From IMG/VR virus record IMGVR_UViG_2872192773_000007: 42,812 nt of DNA; one strand, written 5' to 3'. The DNA comes from a virus (taxonomy: Duplodnaviria; Heunggongvirae; Uroviricota; Caudoviricetes). Under the pieces are notes generated by a model, which saw only the letters and a list, made by a program, of their open reading frames with translations, did not search any database and was not told the DNA's origin. A program made the position numbers and the translations under genes. Of this stretch, positions 28,001-33,471 are shown piece after piece. How positions within the stretch are numbered: position 1 is the stretch's first letter; every line of letters starts with the position of its first letter.

Positions 28001-28361
28001 TTCCCAAAATGCACTTGGTTTTACACCGGAATATTCTCATCGTATCCTGCTTGTTGCGTTTCGTTTTGTGTTTGTGGATCCGGGAATGCATATTCAACGC
28101 CTTCCAGTTCAATCCATAGTGCATTACGACCAGCTTTGATTGTCGGCCAGTCCATACCTTTGATTCTTTCCCATGAGCGGGAGGTGAATGTTTTTTCCAG
28201 CAAATCAGCTTTTGCGCGTTTGGCGTCGTTACTGGTGCCCCCATGGTGCTTGTTGAGCAACTCGATAATTTCATCAAGTTAATTTCATCAAGTGCGATTT
28301 CTTTTGCACGCTTTTCTTTTAGCCATGTCGGTGTACCGTCGTTGGCAAATAATTCACTGTT
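28001..28361 (-). pseudogene. phage gene fragment (Rac-like recombination-module region), frameshifted by a 14-bp tandem duplication
   Basis: Two overlapping minus-strand ORF pieces; perfect tandem TAATTTCATCAAGT x2 at about 28266-28293; bounded by IS629 and IS911. Confidence 0.3.
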
Positions 28362-28369
28362 TGAAGTGG

Positions 28370-29209
28370 TCAACAAAAACTGGCCACCGAGTTAGAGTTT
28401 TTCCAGTATCGATTTTCCGATTCGTTTGGGGGTAACCCACCGTTATATTCGTGCGGTCTTAGTGCACTGTAATATCCAACGATATAGTCCGTTATGGCGT
28501 GAGCTGCCTCGCTGAAGCTTACGTAACCCACCACCGGCATCCATTCGTTCTTCAGACTCCTGAAGAAGCGTTCCATTGGGCTGTTATCCCAGCAGTTTCC
28601 GCGCCGGCTCATACTCTGTCTGATCTGGTATCGCCACAATAACTGCCGGAACTGCCTGCTCGTATAATGACTGCCCTGATCGCTGTGGAACATCACCCCG
28701 CCGGGCTTACCACGGGTTTCCCATGCCATTTCCAGCGCTTTCATGGTGAGCCTGCTGTCCGGCGAGAACGACATGGCCCAGCCCACTGGTTTTCTTGCGA
28801 ACAGGTCGAGAACAACGGCGAGGTACGCCCAGCGCTTACCCGTCCAGATATAGGTCACATCACCGCACCACACCTGATTTGGCTCGGTCACGGCGAACTG
28901 CCTTTCAAGGTAGTTAGGGATAGCAACATGTTCATGACCACCACGTTTATACCGGTGAGTCGGCTGCTGACAGCTGACCAGCCCCAGCTCTTTCATGAGC
29001 CTGCCAGCAAGCCAGCGTCCCATCTGGTAGCCTCTCCGGGTTGCCATTGTGGCGATGCTTCTTGCTCCGGCCGAACCGTGGCTGATGCCATGTAGCTCAA
29101 GTACCTGACTGCGTAATACAGCCCGTCTGCCGTCTGGTTTTTCAGGACGGTTTTTCCAGTATCTGTAGCTGCTGCGATGAACCCCGAACACATGGCAGAG
29201 TGTGACCAC
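28370..29209 (-). CDS. IS911 OrfB frame
   Basis: 279-aa ORF. Confidence 0.85.
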
Positions 29210-29235
29210 AGGATAATGCGCTCTGAGTTTCCCGA

Positions 29236-29538
29236 TTATCGAGAACTGTTCAGGGAGTCTGACATCAAGAGCGCGGTAGCCTTTTTTAATATTTCATTCT
29301 CCATTTCAATGCGTTGTAGCTTTTTCCTGAGCTCACGGATTTCAATTTGTTCCGGGGTAATGGGGGAGGCTTTTGGTGTTTTGCCCTGACGCTCATCACG
29401 CAGTTGTTTGACCCATCTTGTCATTGTGGAAAGGCCAACATCCATAGCTTTGGCGGCATCTGCCACCGTGTATTTCTGGTCAACAACCAGTTGAGCGGAT
29501 TCGCGTTTAAACTCTGCGCTAAAATTTCTTTTTTTCAT
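29236..29538 (-). CDS. IS911 OrfA
   Basis: 100-aa ORF. Confidence 0.9.
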
Positions 29539-29610
29539 TGGAGCACCTGTGTTGTTCTGAGGTGAGCATATCACCTCTGTTCAGGTGGCCAAATTCAGTG
29601 TGCCACTTCA

Positions 29611-29861
29611 CAGCCATGTACCGGATGTGTTCTGCCATGCGCTCCTGAAACTCAACATCATCATCAAATGCGTGGCTGATTGCCTGTTTATTGGCACCGT
29701 GGCGTTGCAAATGGTCGATGCAGAGCGATTCAAACAGGTGCTGAGGCAGACCTTTTTCCAGGTCGTCCGCCAGTTCCGTTTCTTTTTCTTCACGAACGAT
29801 CTGCTGGTAGTGACGAGCCCATGCCATTTCTTCAATACGATCAAAAATCGGATAAGCGCTC
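29611..29861 (-). pseudogene. gene fragment trapped between IS911 and IS600 (about 83 codons, both ends missing)
   Basis: Open minus-strand frame ...[57 protein letters not shown]...; identity not established. Confidence 0.3.
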
Positions 29862-29925
29862 TGAGGTAGCCTGAGTTTAACGGACACTCCTTCCTGAAAT
29901 AGAATGGCATCAGAAGGAGCTAATA

Positions 29926-30228
29926 ATGAGCAGAAAAACCCAACGTTACTCTAAAGAGTTCAAAGCCGAAGCTGTCAGAACGGTTCTTGAAAATCAACTT
30001 TCGATCAGTGAAGGCGCTTCCCGATTATCTCTTCCTGAAGGCACTTTAGGACAATGGGTTACCGCCGCCAGAAAAGGGCTCGGTACTCCTGGTTCCCGCA
30101 CGGTGGCTGAACTGGAATCTGAAATTCTGCAACTGCGTAAGGCGTTAAATGAAGCTCGCCTTGAGCGAGATATATTAAAAAAAGCAACAGCGTATTTTGC
30201 ACAGGAGTCGCTGAAAAATACGCGTTAA
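29926..30228 (+). CDS. IS600 OrfA
   Basis: 100-aa ORF. Confidence 0.9.
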
Positions 30229-31082: not shown

Positions 31083-31129
31083 AAAAAGAACAAATGGTAG
31101 TGTCCGCTATTGCCAGTACACCTCACAGG

Positions 31130-32554
31130 CTACCTCAAGGCAGCCAGTAATTTGTCTGCATCGACAGGATTTTTGGGCGGAATGTTTTTCCGGGCTTCAT
31201 GGAGTTCTGCCCGTAGTTCCTGATATTTCTCATCAACAGAATTTACCTGTGACTGAGCATCCAGCGGCTGCGTGTTCTGATGATGTTCAGTTGCATCCGG
31301 TTCCATTGTTTCAGCCGTTGCCTGTTCATCTGCCATTGCGCCAGATGGCTGCGTTTTTTCTTCATCATCCTGTTTTCCTTCTTCTGTTACACGTTGCGGC
31401 ATCGGGGCAGAGGAGCGACCGCAGGCAATATCCACGATTTCCGGATCAGGGTTGGCATGATCGGTTTCAGTCAGTACCTTGTTCAGATATTCAGTGACGT
31501 GAGCGGGGATGACCTCGATACCAATCGGTGCTTCTTTCACTGACGCAACCACGATGGCGCGGGAATAATCCATCCCGCCAGGCATGGTGATGAATTTGTC
31601 GCGGAAAACAGAAAAGGGCGGTTTATTTTCAGCGATAATTTCCTCGACACGTTTAGCGTGTGCCGGATGAAGGTTATAAATGTCCACGTCCATTGAACGA
31701 GCCAGTACGCCAGTGGCTACGTCGCGCGCCAGTGACGTCAGATCGTGAACGAAACCTTCGCCGCGATCGGTGAGGTTCCCGCCGCCAGCATTAGCGCCGG
31801 AAGCCGTGCGCGTGATGCGTGAAACACGATTTCCTTTCATCCACTCTTTTGTCAGCAGACCGCGATCGGTGTAGTCTGCGTCCATGTATGCTTCGAAAAA
31901 AGCAGTCATCAGCCCCAGGCTTGAATTGCCTGGATTAGGGAAAACTCTGTCAGTATCACGCACCAGTTTGTGGAGATCGCGAATTTCCAGCGGATCGAGC
32001 AGGCTGGTTTTGTGGGAAACAGCCAGGGCAGTAACAGCTGGTAGTTCTTCATCCCGAGCAATGTGTAATGCCTGGAGTTCGTCGCGTGAAACGTGCGTTA
32101 CTGGTTTTTCGCTGCCGTGTTGCGCAAGCCAGCGAATGGGCAGTTCCTGACCGGAAACTGGCAGGAGCATGTTCTCCTCAATTTCTGTCATGTCTTCGCC
32201 GTTGACGTTGGTATTGTCAGTGCTGGCCGGTTTGTCCTGAACAGAGGGAGAAGATGCGATAAATACCATTGTGATGCCATCTTCCCCGCCTTTTTCGTAA
32301 CGGTTGCAGAATTCCGTATCAAATACGCCTTCTGGCGGGAGGTCATCAACAACGGGCAAATTGACGCGAACAGGTTTTTTAAAGTCATCTTCATCGTAGC
32401 CTGCATCGTCAATCGCAACAGCACCACGGGAGATGGCAATGGATAATTTTTTCGCTTCAGCCCAGTAAAAACCGCCTTTAATACCGAGACGTTTTCTTAC
32501 TTTGTCATTTTTTGCTTCGTAATACAGTGGGTAAACTTGTTTATCGGTGTTCAT
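31130..32554 (-). pseudogene. recE: exonuclease VIII (RecE)-like, N-terminal about 474 aa; 3' part removed at IS600
   Basis: Large acidic ORF immediately upstream of racC/ydaE/kilR-sized genes in Rac order; stop lies 5 bp from the IS600 end; identification rests on gene order and recalled sequence, not a search. Confidence 0.55.
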
Positions 32555-32653
32555 TGTTTTTTAACCTCAACTCAGATTAAAATTACTGCGAGTGATGAAT
32601 AAATGTCCCAGGTTCTTCATTCAGGCCTGCACAGTGTGCAGGCTTTCTTTTTT

Positions 32654-32929
32654 TCAGATTTCACCTTTTAATTTCATTGCAATCAGAGTTGCCAGAAATT
32701 CGGCTTTTTTTTCTGCGGGCAGATTCTTTCCTATGTGCACCAGACACATTTTTTTTACACCATCGTTAAGTGTTTTAACGTTGCCTGATGGACCGTCGAT
32801 ATCAACCACAGTGAATGGGGTTTCTTTATTTTCTGTCTTAATCACGTAGCCAATACGCTTTCCTTCCAGATTAACCTCGTGAACAATGTCATCAGTAGTT
32901 ACAACAGTGGCTTCATAACTGGTAATCAT
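32654..32929 (-). CDS. racC: RacC-like protein (91 aa)
   Basis: 91-aa ORF MITSYEATVVTTDDIVHEVNLEGKRIGYV...; size and position match Rac racC. Confidence 0.6.
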   Translation of the reverse strand: MITSYEATVVTTDDIVHEVNLEGKRIGYVIKTENKETPFTVVDIDGPSGNVKTLNDGVKKMCLVHIGKNLPAEKKAEFLATLIAMKLKGEI

Positions 32930-33003
32930 GTTTTTCTCCTTAATTAAGGTTGAGCGAATCCCTGCCATTGCTGGCATAAATTCAGTTTCGGATAGTCAGT
33001 TAA

Positions 33004-33174
33004 TTAAAGTTCGTGTGCCATCTGGTCTTTTTCGGCACAGATTTCACTACAATATTTTTTCATTTCCGTCGTTGGTATAACTCCACGCATGAAATGAAGT
33101 GGTCTTGTAATGATTTTGCTTTCTTCAATTTCTTTATTGCAAAGGTGATAAGCACATTTTATTTTCTTAGTCAT
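33004..33174 (-). CDS. ydaE: YdaE-like zinc-ribbon protein (56 aa)
   Basis: [56 protein letters not shown]; four Cys; ATG overlaps the kilR stop. Confidence 0.6.
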   Translation of the reverse strand: MTKKIKCAYHLCNKEIEESKIITRPLHFMRGVIPTTEMKKYCSEICAEKDQMAHEL

Positions 33175-33395
33175 TACCATGACTCCGCCTTTACAGGTAA
33201 ACCATCACGACCGAGGAAGACTTTAATCATGCAGTCAGAAATGCATGTTTTTGTAGTCAGGCTACGAATATAAAGTTTTCGCTTTTTAATATTGTTTGCC
33301 GAGGCGATATATGTCCGACCTTCATGAAGAACATAATCGCCAGGAGTCACACACTGACGTGGTATTTCATCAGTTCCGAAGTGATGAGCAATCAT
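33174..33395 (-). CDS. kilR: KilR-like killing protein (FtsZ inhibitor), 73 aa, intact
   Basis: 73-aa ORF with perfect TAAGGAGG RBS; [32 protein letters not shown]... Confidence 0.65.
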
Positions 33396-33471
33396 GGAAG
33401 CCTCCTTAATAAACAGTCTTACAAAGGAAATCTCAGGAAAGTTATTTAATACTTAGCAGCTGGATTTGCCC

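What the first reader, a model, noticed from the sequence alone, without database searches (positions are those of the whole stretch)
28001..33410. Rac-like recE-racC-ydaE-kilR module: recombination gene shredded, kil gene intact
Minus-strand genes of 73, 56 and 91 aa in the Rac order kilR-ydaE-racC follow a large recE-like ORF that is cut by IS600; further downstream fragments are separated by IS911 and IS629, and one carries a perfect 14-bp tandem duplication TAATTTCATCAAGT x2 (about 28266-28293) that shifts the frame. The kilR-like gene keeps a perfect TAAGGAGG RBS while its upstream region is replaced by IS2, so the control of this potentially toxic FtsZ-inhibitor-like gene is unclear.
Basis: partly seen in the sequence, partly recalled or inferred. 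Interest (0 to 1): 0.4.

Follow-up and report, generated by a model that had tools for sequence, protein, structure and literature searches.

The report
Decayed Rac-like prophage, intact kilR
This is an ordinary, insertion-sequence-riddled remnant of a Rac-type prophage in a Shigella flexneri-type genome, in which the small cell-division-inhibitor gene kilR is still intact, most likely because it is a small target and is cut off from any evident promoter.

Summary
kilR (73 aa), ydaE (56 aa) and racC (91 aa) are true Rac homologues. The recE-like ORF is cut by IS600, and the 14-bp tandem duplication and the TAAGGAGG ribosome-binding site are exact.

Three points need correcting:
- **IS2.** It did not replace the region upstream of kilR. 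It is a simple 1331-bp insertion with a 5-bp target duplication, 65 bp upstream of the kilR ATG, in the last codons of an already frameshifted Rha-family gene.
- **Downstream fragments.** They are not recE or recT pieces. They are a lambda-type gam gene and the tail of an AAA_24 ATPase gene.
- **recE-like gene.** In the closest uninterrupted relatives it already lacks the exonuclease domain.

No IS2 fusion promoter can be built at this junction. This prophage's immunity region and early promoter have been deleted. A sister strain has lost kilR altogether. The chance that kilR escapes 7-9 random lesions is about 0.75-0.8.

The same IS2 junction occurs in Shigella flexneri SFBU1023 and in nine other complete chromosomes of 4.4-4.7 Mb. 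This is known biology: IS-driven prophage decay in Shigella. Interest is low.

The parts
24883..25580 (-). intR 3' fragment (tyrosine integrase), preceded by the att core at 24840-24882
   Evidence: 96.8% identical to K-12 Rac left end/intR (L003 2900-3642). About 422 bp of intR is missing at the IS1 junction compared with L002.
25581..26348 (+). IS1 (768 bp) interrupting intR
   Evidence: Two more 99.7%-identical copies occur in the window.
26349..26694 (-). intR 5' end plus most of xisR
   Evidence: 95% identical to L003 4065-4410 and L002 3305-3650.
26695..28001 (-). IS629-type IS3-family element (1307 bp). There is no target duplication, and about 350 bp (xisR start plus the DUF1187 gene) is missing beside it.
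   Evidence: ALIL frameshift pseudoknot at 27549-27665. The name IS629 comes from my own recollection of its terminal sequence; the matched records say only 'IS3 family'.
28002..28361 (-). 3' tail (last ~115 codons) of an AAA_24 ATPase gene; the frame is shifted by the 14-bp duplication
   Evidence: 96% identical to L002 4001-4347, the 3' end of WP_001173292.1. The full protein hits PF13479 and phrog_1366, and weakly Sak4-like phrog_124.
28266..28293 (.). Perfect 14-bp tandem duplication (TAATTTCATCAAGT x2 on the + strand)
   Evidence: Present in the window and in L015 (CP026871.1, where the rest of the gene is still present); absent in L002, L020 and L022.
28362..29611 (-). IS911 (1250 bp) inserted in gam. 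In the window an adjacent 823-bp deletion removed the 5' two-thirds of the AAA_24 gene.
   Evidence: The 3-bp target duplication CTG is visible in L015 when compared with the uninterrupted L004.
29612..29861 (-). Lambda-type gam fragment (host-nuclease inhibitor). The start codon is lost at the IS600 end, and the 3' end is cut by IS911.
   Evidence: PF06064 E=1.7e-47, profile positions 2-84 of 98. Junction sequence.
29862..31125 (+). IS600 (1264 bp). There is no target duplication, and about 504 bp (recE-like 3' end to the gam ATG) is missing compared with L002.
31126..31137 (.). 12-bp remnant of an IS600 left end (CAGGCTACCTCA), inverted and abutting the IS600 right end. It supplies the stop codon of the truncated recE-like ORF.
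   Evidence: the window diverges from L002 exactly here and matches the first 12 bases of the IS600 left inverted repeat.
31130..32554 (-). recE-like N-terminal ORF, 474 aa, without an exonuclease domain
   Evidence: PF06630 E=9e-37. The NCBIfam RecE equivalog matches positions 1-474 of 877 with a score of 922, below the 1269 cut-off. 97.5% identical to the L002 ORF and 85% to K-12 RecE residues 50-463.
32654..32929 (-). racC, 91 aa, intact
   Evidence: NF007306 score 204 vs cut-off 171. Three substitutions compared with K-12.
33004..33174 (-). ydaE, 56 aa, intact, zinc-binding family
   Evidence: NF041288 score 87.7 vs cut-off 35. Start overlaps the kilR stop, as in K-12.
33174..33395 (-). 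kilR, 73 aa, intact; FtsZ/MreB inhibitor family
   Evidence: NF008465 score 160.9 vs cut-off 92, full length 1-73. 69/73 identical to K-12 (N45S, F51C, T53S, R55C), with the C-terminal 12 residues identical. The exact protein is on record in 11,967 blocks of the assembly collection; among the places shown are E. coli loci with full-length recE-recT.
33396..33460 (-). Native 65-nt kilR leader with the TAAGGAGG ribosome-binding site. 33456-33460 is one copy of the IS2 target duplication.
   Evidence: Homologous to the Rha-kilR spacer of L013. No significant RNA structure (z = -0.03).
33461..34791 (-). IS2 (1331 bp). The transposase genes run in the same direction as kilR and the right inverted repeat faces kilR. 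It is flanked by the 5-bp duplication GCTGC.
   Evidence: 99.6% identical to annotated IS2 and 100% identical to the copy at 2153-3483.
34792..35630 (-). Rha-family (Ash + Rha domains) regulatory gene, inactivated twice: a 1-nt insertion near 35034 splits it into 210-aa and 97-aa ORFs, and IS2 sits in its last 4 codons.
   Evidence: PF09669 and PF10554. tblastn shows a frame switch at codon ~198. Relatives read GCTGAGTTC where the window reads GCTGATGTTC.
35391..35579 (-). C4 antisense RNA (35391-35478) and isrK RNA (35503-35579) inside the 5' part of the Rha ORF. A promoter-like site lies at 35614-35586.
   Evidence: Rfam RF01695 76.7 bits and RF01394 59.6 bits. TTGAAA-17-TATAGT, 10 of 12 matches, is the nearest of the two sites the scan found on the minus strand upstream of kilR; the other, at 36254-36225, matches 9 of 12.
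36710..36770 (.). 61-bp IS911 end fragment marking the deletion that removed this prophage's immunity, replication, lysis and most structural genes
   Evidence: Upstream DNA (35864-36709) matches a ydfC-region of other prophages, where DUF1391 and a repressor-like HTH gene follow. In the window, tail-fibre remnants and ipaH3 follow instead.

Best explanation
The region is the left (early-left/recombination) arm of a Rac-type lambdoid prophage in a Shigella flexneri-type chromosome, in an advanced state of IS-driven decay.

The inferred ancestral gene order on the minus strand is: isrK/C4 - rha - kilR - ydaE - racC - recE-like (N-terminal part only, no nuclease) - gam - AAA_24 ATPase - DUF1187 - xis - int.

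At least eight independent lesions then accumulated:
1. IS1 in int, with a 422-bp deletion.
2. An IS629-type element with a 350-bp deletion.
3. A 14-bp duplication in the AAA_24 gene.
4. IS911 in gam, followed by an adjacent 823-bp deletion.
5. IS600, with a remnant of a second IS600, removing about 504 bp.
6. A +1 frameshift in rha.
7. IS2 in the last codons of rha.
8. An IS911-associated deletion of the whole immunity-to-tail region.

kilR, ydaE and racC escaped because together they form a small (742-bp) target. kilR still encodes a presumably active toxin.

- **Shown here:** kilR has lost its early promoter and repressor, and no fusion promoter can be built at the IS2 junction.
- **Inferred:** kilR is separated from the remaining upstream promoter-like sites, of which the isrK one is nearest, by an intrinsic-terminator-like hairpin, a frameshifted untranslated gene and 1.3 kb of IS2. 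I therefore infer that it is silent, or receives only weak read-through from upstream or from the weak, self-repressed IS2 transposase promoter.
For: - **Homology and order:**
- **IS boundaries, target duplications and deletions:**
- **Relatives with a nuclease-less recE-like gene plus gam plus AAA_24:** found at two different attachment sites.
- **rha frameshift:**
- **Promoter:** no sigma-70-like promoter lies between IS2 and kilR. The IS2 junction promoter needs exactly 17 bp (PMC3299598), which places the -10 on CTGCTA.
- **Immunity region:** replaced by an IS911 fragment and tail-fibre/ipaH3 DNA.
- **Distribution:** the same IS2 junction is in S. flexneri SFBU1023 and nine other complete chromosomes of 4.4-4.7 Mb. 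The window is 100% identical to CP026772.1 over 28742-37000.
- **Dispensability:** one sister chromosome (CP026810.1, L007) has lost kilR-ydaE-racC-recE' entirely.
- **Chance:** escape probability is 0.75-0.8 for kilR and 0.36-0.45 for the three-gene block.
- **Context:** 34.7% of the window is IS DNA.
Against: - No expression data were available, so 'silent' is an inference.
- IS2 runs in the same direction as kilR and no intrinsic terminator was predicted between the transposase stop and kilR. Some read-through is therefore possible.
- In K-12, kilR is normally expressed by read-through when Rho/NusG termination is weakened (PMC5793797), so absence of a dedicated promoter does not prove silence.
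- Prophage DNA in the Shigella loci is nearly invariant (0-2 SNPs in about 3.4 kb). Selection on kilR can therefore be neither shown nor excluded from sequence.
Confidence: 0.8

Rival explanations
1. kilR is a domesticated gene kept by selection. In Shigella it would still act as the last step of the OxyS-NusG-KilR division checkpoint. It would be transcribed conditionally by Rho/NusG-sensitive read-through coming from the isrK promoter and/or the IS2 transposase promoter, and translated efficiently from its perfect Shine-Dalgarno sequence.
For: - The ORF is intact, the ribosome-binding site is stronger than in K-12 (TAAGGAGG versus GGAG), and the toxicity-determining C-terminal 12 residues are identical (PMC12482147).
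- IS2 runs in the same direction as kilR and no terminator is predicted after the transposase stop.
- K-12 kilR is known to be expressed by read-through when NusG falls (PMC5793797).
- The arrangement is conserved in at least ten complete chromosomes.
Against: - Conservation is explained by recent common descent (0-2 SNPs).
- A sister strain lost the gene (L007).
- Escape by chance is likely.
- The transcript would have to cross a terminator-like hairpin, a frameshifted gene and 1.3 kb of IS2.
Confidence: 0.12
2. IS2 supplies an outward or fusion promoter that now drives kilR constitutively, as IS2 does at ampC.
For: The IS2 right inverted repeat carries an outward -35 (TGGAAA, 16 bp from the tip), and IS2 fusion promoters are documented (PMC9330008, citing Jaurin and Normark 1983). 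The right end faces kilR.
Against: - At the required 17-bp spacing the -10 would be CTGCTA (0 of 6). Spacings of 16-19 bp give GCTGCT, TGCTAA and GCTAAG.
- The scan found no promoter-like site in the leader. The only weak candidate in the last 340 bp of IS2 is ACGATA-17-TATCAT.
- Constitutive KilR is highly toxic (PMC12482147) and would not be tolerated.
Confidence: 0.03
3. The ORFs are chance ORFs or are not Rac homologues.
For: None.
Against: Full-length matches above the curated cut-offs to the KilR, YdaE and RacC NCBIfam models, 89-93% nucleotide identity to K-12 Rac in the same order, and the same module in inducible phages such as Rac-SA53.
Confidence: 0.005

Closest known systems
E. coli K-12 cryptic prophage Rac, early-left operon (kilR-ydaE-racC-recE-recT-ralR...xisR-intR)
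   Same: Same order and orientation of kilR, ydaE and racC. KilR is 69/73 identical, RacC 88/91, the recE N-terminal region 85% (aa), and intR/xisR 95-97% (nt). The att core is the same.
   Different: - No RecE nuclease domain, no recT and no ralR; gam and an AAA_24 ATPase sit in their place.
- An isrK/C4-rha module lies directly upstream of kilR, where K-12 has the kilS-sieB region.
- No racR-type repressor region is left.
- The prophage is not next to ttcA; it follows another Rac-type prophage end (attP-like junction at 24677-24882).
Rac-like prophages of enteroinvasive-type E. coli VL7S7 (at ttcA) and RMDEC465 (at yebY)
   Same: The recE-like (no nuclease)-gam-AAA_24-DUF1187-xis-int arm is 96-97% identical. 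A Rha gene lies upstream, and in VL7S7 ipaH3 is cargo.
   Different: They lack kilR and carry a longer 95-aa YdaE-family gene. Their IS insertions are independent: IS911 lies 37 bp away with target duplication TCC in VL7S7, and ISSso6 is present in RMDEC465. The immunity and replication regions are still present.
Inducible Rac-type phages (Escherichia phage Rac-SA53, vB_EcoS-666R9, Shigella phage POCJ13)
   Same: They carry the recE-racC-ydaE-kil block at 83-94% nucleotide identity.
   Different: They are complete genomes with full-length exonuclease VIII and no IS elements.
IS2 fusion promoters (ampC, acrEF, neoR)
   Same: The IS2 right end faces a downstream gene (PMC9330008).
   Different: No -10 element lies at the obligatory spacing, so the defining feature of a fusion promoter is absent.

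Membership tests
KilR (Rac Kil, FtsZ inhibitor; NCBIfam NF008465) | Full-length match above the curated cut-off | tested here: met
   160.9 bits vs cut-off 92, residues 1-73 of 73. phrog_294 'Kil protein', E=3.5e-36.
KilR (Rac Kil, FtsZ inhibitor; NCBIfam NF008465) | C-terminal unstructured 12 residues needed for toxicity (PMC12482147) | tested here: met
   The last 12 residues are identical to K-12; the four substitutions lie at positions 45, 51, 53 and 55.
KilR (Rac Kil, FtsZ inhibitor; NCBIfam NF008465) | Toxicity / inhibition of FtsZ ring formation | not testable with these tools
   Needs expression of 33174-33395 in vivo.
YdaE family (NF041288) and RacC (NF007306) | Full-length match above the cut-off, positioned between kilR and recE | tested here: met
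   87.7 vs 35 and 204.2 vs 171. Order as in K-12.
RecE / exodeoxyribonuclease VIII (NF007259 equivalog) | Score above the equivalog cut-off | tested here: not met
   922 bits vs cut-off 1269; only model positions 1-474 of 877 are matched.
RecE / exodeoxyribonuclease VIII (NF007259 equivalog) | C-terminal PD-(D/E)XK nuclease domain (PF12684 in full-length relatives) | tested here: not met
   Only PF06630 is found. There is no PDB match, although the solved RecE fragment is, from my own knowledge, the C-terminal nuclease domain. The uninterrupted relative L002 also ends in an unrelated ~55-aa tail instead of the nuclease domain.
Lambda Gam (PF06064) | Pfam match above the gathering score; complete ORF | tested here: inconclusive
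   The family match is clear (160 bits vs 25), but the gene lacks its start codon and its last ~14 codons. It is a member by descent but not a functional gene.
IS2 simple insertion | 1331-bp element with the characteristic ends and a 5-bp target duplication | tested here: met
   33461-34791, ends TGGATTTGCCCC.../...GGGGGCCAGTCTA, GCTGC on both sides.
IS2 fusion promoter | -10 hexamer 17 bp downstream of the right-end -35 (PMC3299598) | tested here: not met
   CTGCTA at 17 bp, no match to TATAAT.
Rac prophage (integrated at ttcA) | intR/xisR plus the att core next to ttcA | tested here: inconclusive
   intR, xisR and the core are present (95-97% identity). However, the core is preceded by a Rac-type right arm carrying sitABCD, not by ttcA.

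The most novel reading that the evidence does not exclude
The IS2 insertion, together with the rha frameshift, was selected as an insulator that tamed kilR once the prophage repressor region had been deleted. The gene is now kept as a conditionally expressed, Rho/NusG-gated division brake in Shigella flexneri. An independent IS600 insertion upstream of kilR in Shiga-toxin E. coli Rac prophages (L001) would then be a parallel case.
Probability: 0.08. Interest if true: 0.4.

Novelty: already known. Interest (0 to 1): 0.1.

Why it matters
It matters little beyond correct annotation. The region illustrates how Shigella prophages decay through nested IS insertions and IS-adjacent deletions. It also shows that an intact toxic gene in such wreckage needs no special explanation. 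Two practical points follow. First, the recombination arm here is a recE-N/gam/AAA_24 mosaic rather than RecET. Second, annotation pipelines flag the nuclease-less recE-like gene as a pseudogene even where it is an open ORF of about 646 aa. If kilR were shown to be expressed in Shigella, it could extend the OxyS-NusG-KilR checkpoint described in K-12 to a pathogen.

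Tried and rejected
- **IS2 fusion promoter.** I built the candidate from the documented 17-bp rule and scanned the last 340 bp of IS2 plus the leader with relaxed criteria. Only one weak internal site appeared (ACGATA-17-TATCAT, 33663-33635), and it belongs to every IS2 copy. Rejected.
- **Regulatory RNA structure in the kilR leader.** The fold is no better than shuffled sequence, z = -0.03. Rejected.
- **Selection test from polymorphism among Shigella loci.** Only 0-2 SNPs occur in non-IS DNA (one V22I change in kilR in CP034931.1), so the test is uninformative.
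- **Shared ancestry of the IS911 insertion with E. coli VL7S7.** My first reading of the alignment suggested the same insertion. Junction sequences show different sites 37 bp apart with different target duplications. Rejected.
- **orf97 as a separate gene.** It is the frameshifted C-terminal part of rha.
- **Solved-structure searches.** Searches for the recE-like fragment and the AAA_24 protein found nothing.
- **Rfam.** It has no hit for a kilS-like RNA in the window.
- **Literature search for kilR in Shigella flexneri.** It returned no study of this locus.

Full report
**1. What is in the sequence**

The ORF list and the minus-strand sequence confirm the following:
- kilR at 33174-33395 (73 aa).
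- ydaE at 33004-33174 (56 aa), whose ATG overlaps the kilR stop as TAATG.
- racC at 32654-32929 (91 aa, counted from the ATG that follows AAGGAG).
- A 474-aa recE-like ORF at 31130-32554.

TAAGGAGG lies 5 nt upstream of the kilR ATG. The 14-bp tandem duplication is perfect and lies exactly at 28266-28293.

**2.

I fetched MG1655 Rac and aligned it with the window.
- Window 32547-33395 matches racC-ydaE-kilR at 89% nucleotide identity.
- Window 31140-32216 matches the 5' part of recE at 93%.
- The int/xis fragments match at 95-97%.
- KilR is 69/73 identical (N45S, F51C, T53S, R55C). Its C-terminal 12 residues, which a 2025 study found essential for toxicity (PMC12482147), are unchanged.

NCBIfam models for KilR, YdaE and RacC are matched full-length above their curated cut-offs. 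The refutation condition 'not Rac homologues' therefore fails.

**3. Map of the wreckage**

BLAST against relatives and against the window's own IS copies gives this map:

| Coordinates | Feature |
|---|---|
| 24840-24882 | att core |
| 24883-25580 | intR 3' part |
| 25581-26348 | IS1 |
| 26349-26694 | intR 5' part plus xisR |
| 26695-28001 | IS629-type element |
| 28002-28361 | tail of an AAA_24 ATPase gene, carrying the 14-bp duplication |
| 28362-29611 | IS911 |
| 29612-29861 | gam fragment |
| 29862-31125 | IS600 |
| 31126-31137 | 12-bp inverted remnant of another IS600 left end |
| 31130-32554 | recE-like ORF |
| 32654-33395 | racC, ydaE, kilR |
| 33396-33460 | 65-bp kilR leader |
| 33461-34791 | IS2 |
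| 34792-35630 | rha |

Compared with the uninterrupted relative L002:
- 422 bp is missing at IS1.
- 350 bp is missing at the IS629-type element.
- 823 bp is missing beside IS911 (compared with L015).
- 504 bp is missing at IS600.

IS DNA makes up 46% of 28001-33410 and 34.7% of the whole window, in 14 copies or fragments.

**4.

(a) *The fragments downstream of the recE-like ORF are not recE or recT.*
- Fragment 29612-29861 is lambda-type gam (PF06064, E=1.7e-47). Its ATG was removed at the IS600 tip. Its 3' end is cut by IS911, whose 3-bp target duplication CTG is visible in L015 when compared with L004.
- Fragment 28002-28361 is the last ~115 codons of a 365-aa AAA_24 ATPase gene. The full protein hits PF13479 and phrog_1366, and only weakly the Sak4-like phrog_124.

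(b) *The recE-like gene was already nuclease-less.*
- In E. coli VL7S7 (prophage at ttcA) and RMDEC465 (prophage at yebY), the homologous ORF runs about 646 aa.
- It matches K-12 RecE residues 40-585 and then ends in an unrelated tail just before gam.
- The window fragment fails the RecE equivalog cut-off (922 vs 1269) and has no nuclease-domain match.

(c) *IS2 is an insertion, not a replacement.*
- GCTGC flanks both ends on the minus strand.
- Removing IS2 and one repeat restores ...TVEQLLSIK*, the normal end of the Rha-family protein of L013, followed by the normal Rha-kilR spacer.

(d) *The 97-aa ORF upstream of IS2 is not a separate gene.* It is the C-terminal part of rha, split off by a 1-nt insertion: the window reads GCTGATGTTC where relatives read GCTGAGTTC.

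**5. Order of events, and the duplication**

- The 14-bp duplication is also present in CP026871.1 (L015), where the rest of the AAA_24 gene still exists.
- It is absent from L002, L020 and L022.
- It therefore arose as a frameshifting lesion before the IS911-adjacent deletion seen in the window.
- The IS2 insertion, the IS600 junction and the rha frameshift are shared by nearly all the Shigella-type loci examined; L007 has lost the IS600/recE-like junction, and no rha ORFs were called in L020.
- The IS911 insertion and the later deletions vary between strains.

**6. Control of kilR**

*Native control is gone.*
- Upstream of rha the homology with other prophages (ydfC region) stops at 36709, at a 61-bp IS911 fragment. 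Tail-fibre remnants and ipaH3 follow.
- In relatives, the DUF1391 gene, the repressor-like HTH gene and the replication genes follow at that point instead.

*No IS2 fusion promoter.*
- Fusion promoters such as the one at ampC need a -10 at that distance (PMC9330008).
- Here the hexamer at that distance is CTGCTA. Spacings of 16-19 bp are no better.
- The general scan finds no promoter-like site between IS2 and kilR, and the leader has no significant fold.

*What remains upstream.*
- The nearest consensus-like promoter upstream on this strand is at 35614-35586; the scan found one further, weaker minus-strand site at 36254-36225. The nearer one sits in front of the isrK and C4 RNAs found by Rfam.
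- Transcripts from it would have to pass a terminator-like hairpin (35525-35508), the frameshifted rha gene and 1.3 kb of IS2.
- IS2 and kilR run in the same direction, and no terminator is predicted after the transposase stop. Weak read-through from the weak, OrfA-repressed IS2 promoter (PMC3299598) cannot be excluded.
- In K-12, kilR is expressed precisely by read-through when NusG/Rho termination weakens (PMC5793797; PMC4632033). A low, conditional expression therefore remains possible but is untested.

**7. Is the intactness of kilR remarkable?**

- The reconstructed ancestral segment from int to rha is about 6.9 kb.
- For 7-9 independent lesions placed at random, the chance that all miss kilR is 0.75-0.8. 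The chance that all miss the 742-bp kilR-ydaE-racC block is 0.36-0.45.
- Non-IS DNA differs by 0-2 SNPs among ten Shigella-type loci, so there has been no time for point-mutational decay.
- One complete chromosome (CP026810.1, L007) has lost kilR-ydaE-racC-recE' by a deletion between IS2 and IS600. This shows the block is dispensable.
- The exact KilR protein is widespread: it is on record in 11,967 blocks of the collection, including E. coli loci with full-length recE-recT.

**8. Source and context**

- The IS2-kilR junction occurs in Shigella flexneri SFBU1023 and in a 4.44-Mb chromosome labelled E. coli ECMA0423.
- The IS2/rha fusion ORF is on record in eight complete chromosomes of 4.4-4.7 Mb, one of them ECMA0423; CP045941.1 also carries the junction. 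Eight of these ten chromosomes have an IpaH gene a few kilobases away.
- The window is 100% identical to CP026772.1 over 28742-37000.
- Rfam finds the Shigella sRNA CssrB at 40000-40182.
- No complete E. coli genome in the collection covers 80% of the region.
- Inducible phages such as Rac-SA53 carry the intact recE-racC-ydaE-kil block.

**9. Verdict**

- The recombination arm is a recE-N/gam/AAA_24 mosaic, not RecET.
- IS2 is a simple insertion that supplies no recognisable promoter.
- The survival of kilR needs no special explanation.
- This is a textbook case of IS-driven prophage decay in Shigella, and the same locus is already present in public genome records. Novelty: already known. Interest: about 0.1.

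Noticed in passing
window 24677-24882 (with 21019-24468): An attP-like junction. A Rac-type right arm (89% to K-12 Rac's right end/ttcC) carrying sitABCD is joined through the att core directly to intR of the kilR prophage. In E. coli VL7S7 the same sit-bearing end is followed by uspF-ompN. This suggests two Rac-type prophage remnants in tandem, or a rearranged double lysogen.
   Followed up: partly
window 36771-41062: ipaH3 (571 aa, 38156-39871, minus strand), tail-fibre/DUF4376 remnants, the Shigella sRNA CssrB (40000-40182) and pphA-like DNA lie only ~3 kb from rha. In VL7S7 ipaH3 lies ~22 kb from the recombination arm of the same prophage, so ~20 kb of prophage has been deleted here.
   Followed up: partly
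L002 6600-8590, L022 5472-7244 (relatives); window 31130-32554: A nuclease-less recE-like ORF (~646 aa) followed by lambda-type gam and a 365-aa AAA_24 ATPase (phrog_1366, function unknown) recurs in prophages at two different attachment sites. PGAP calls the recE-like gene an incomplete pseudogene although the frame stays open. The function of this module is unknown and there is no solved structure.
   Followed up: partly
gam region: window 29611/29612; L002 5134-6382; L022 3925-5052: Three independent IS insertions lie in or next to gam in three lineages: IS911 with target duplication CTG in Shigella, IS911 37 bp away with TCC in VL7S7, and ISSso6 in RMDEC465. This could be a target hot spot or counter-selection of a RecBCD inhibitor.
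   Followed up: no
window 31126-31137: A 12-bp inverted remnant of an IS600 left end abuts the right end of the full IS600 and provides the stop codon of the truncated recE-like ORF. This is the trace of a second IS600 copy, nested or recombined.
   Followed up: partly
window 35391-35579 and 10937-11138: Two copies of an isrK + C4 antisense RNA pair (P1 immI / Gifsy isrK type). One lies inside the annotated 'Ash' N-terminal part of the Rha ORF upstream of kilR. The other, in the neighbouring prophage, also has the a1b1 target element. The 'Ash' protein-domain match may partly reflect translation of an RNA gene.
   Followed up: no
window 35813-35862: The 3' half of the K-12 sRNA gene kilS seems conserved (79% identity block 35653-35862 to K-12 9249-9454), with a terminator-like hairpin at 35858-35831. 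Here it lies upstream of the rha module rather than directly upstream of kilR. There is no Rfam hit.
   Followed up: no
L001 6625-7888 (E. coli 2003-3014): In this Shiga-toxin-type E. coli Rac prophage, an IS600 lies ~400 bp upstream of kilR where K-12 has sieB, with ~500 bp missing. This is an independent IS insertion between the early promoter and kilR in another lineage.
   Followed up: no
window 26737-27623: The IS629-type copy has its second transposase frame split into overlapping 118-aa and 222-aa ORFs, so this copy is probably defective. The matched E. coli copies are labelled only 'IS3 family transposase'.
   Followed up: no
window 7816-7990 and 13223-13530: The neighbouring prophage remnant carries a hok/sok-type antitoxin RNA (CssrC) and a cluster of four tRNA genes.
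   Followed up: no
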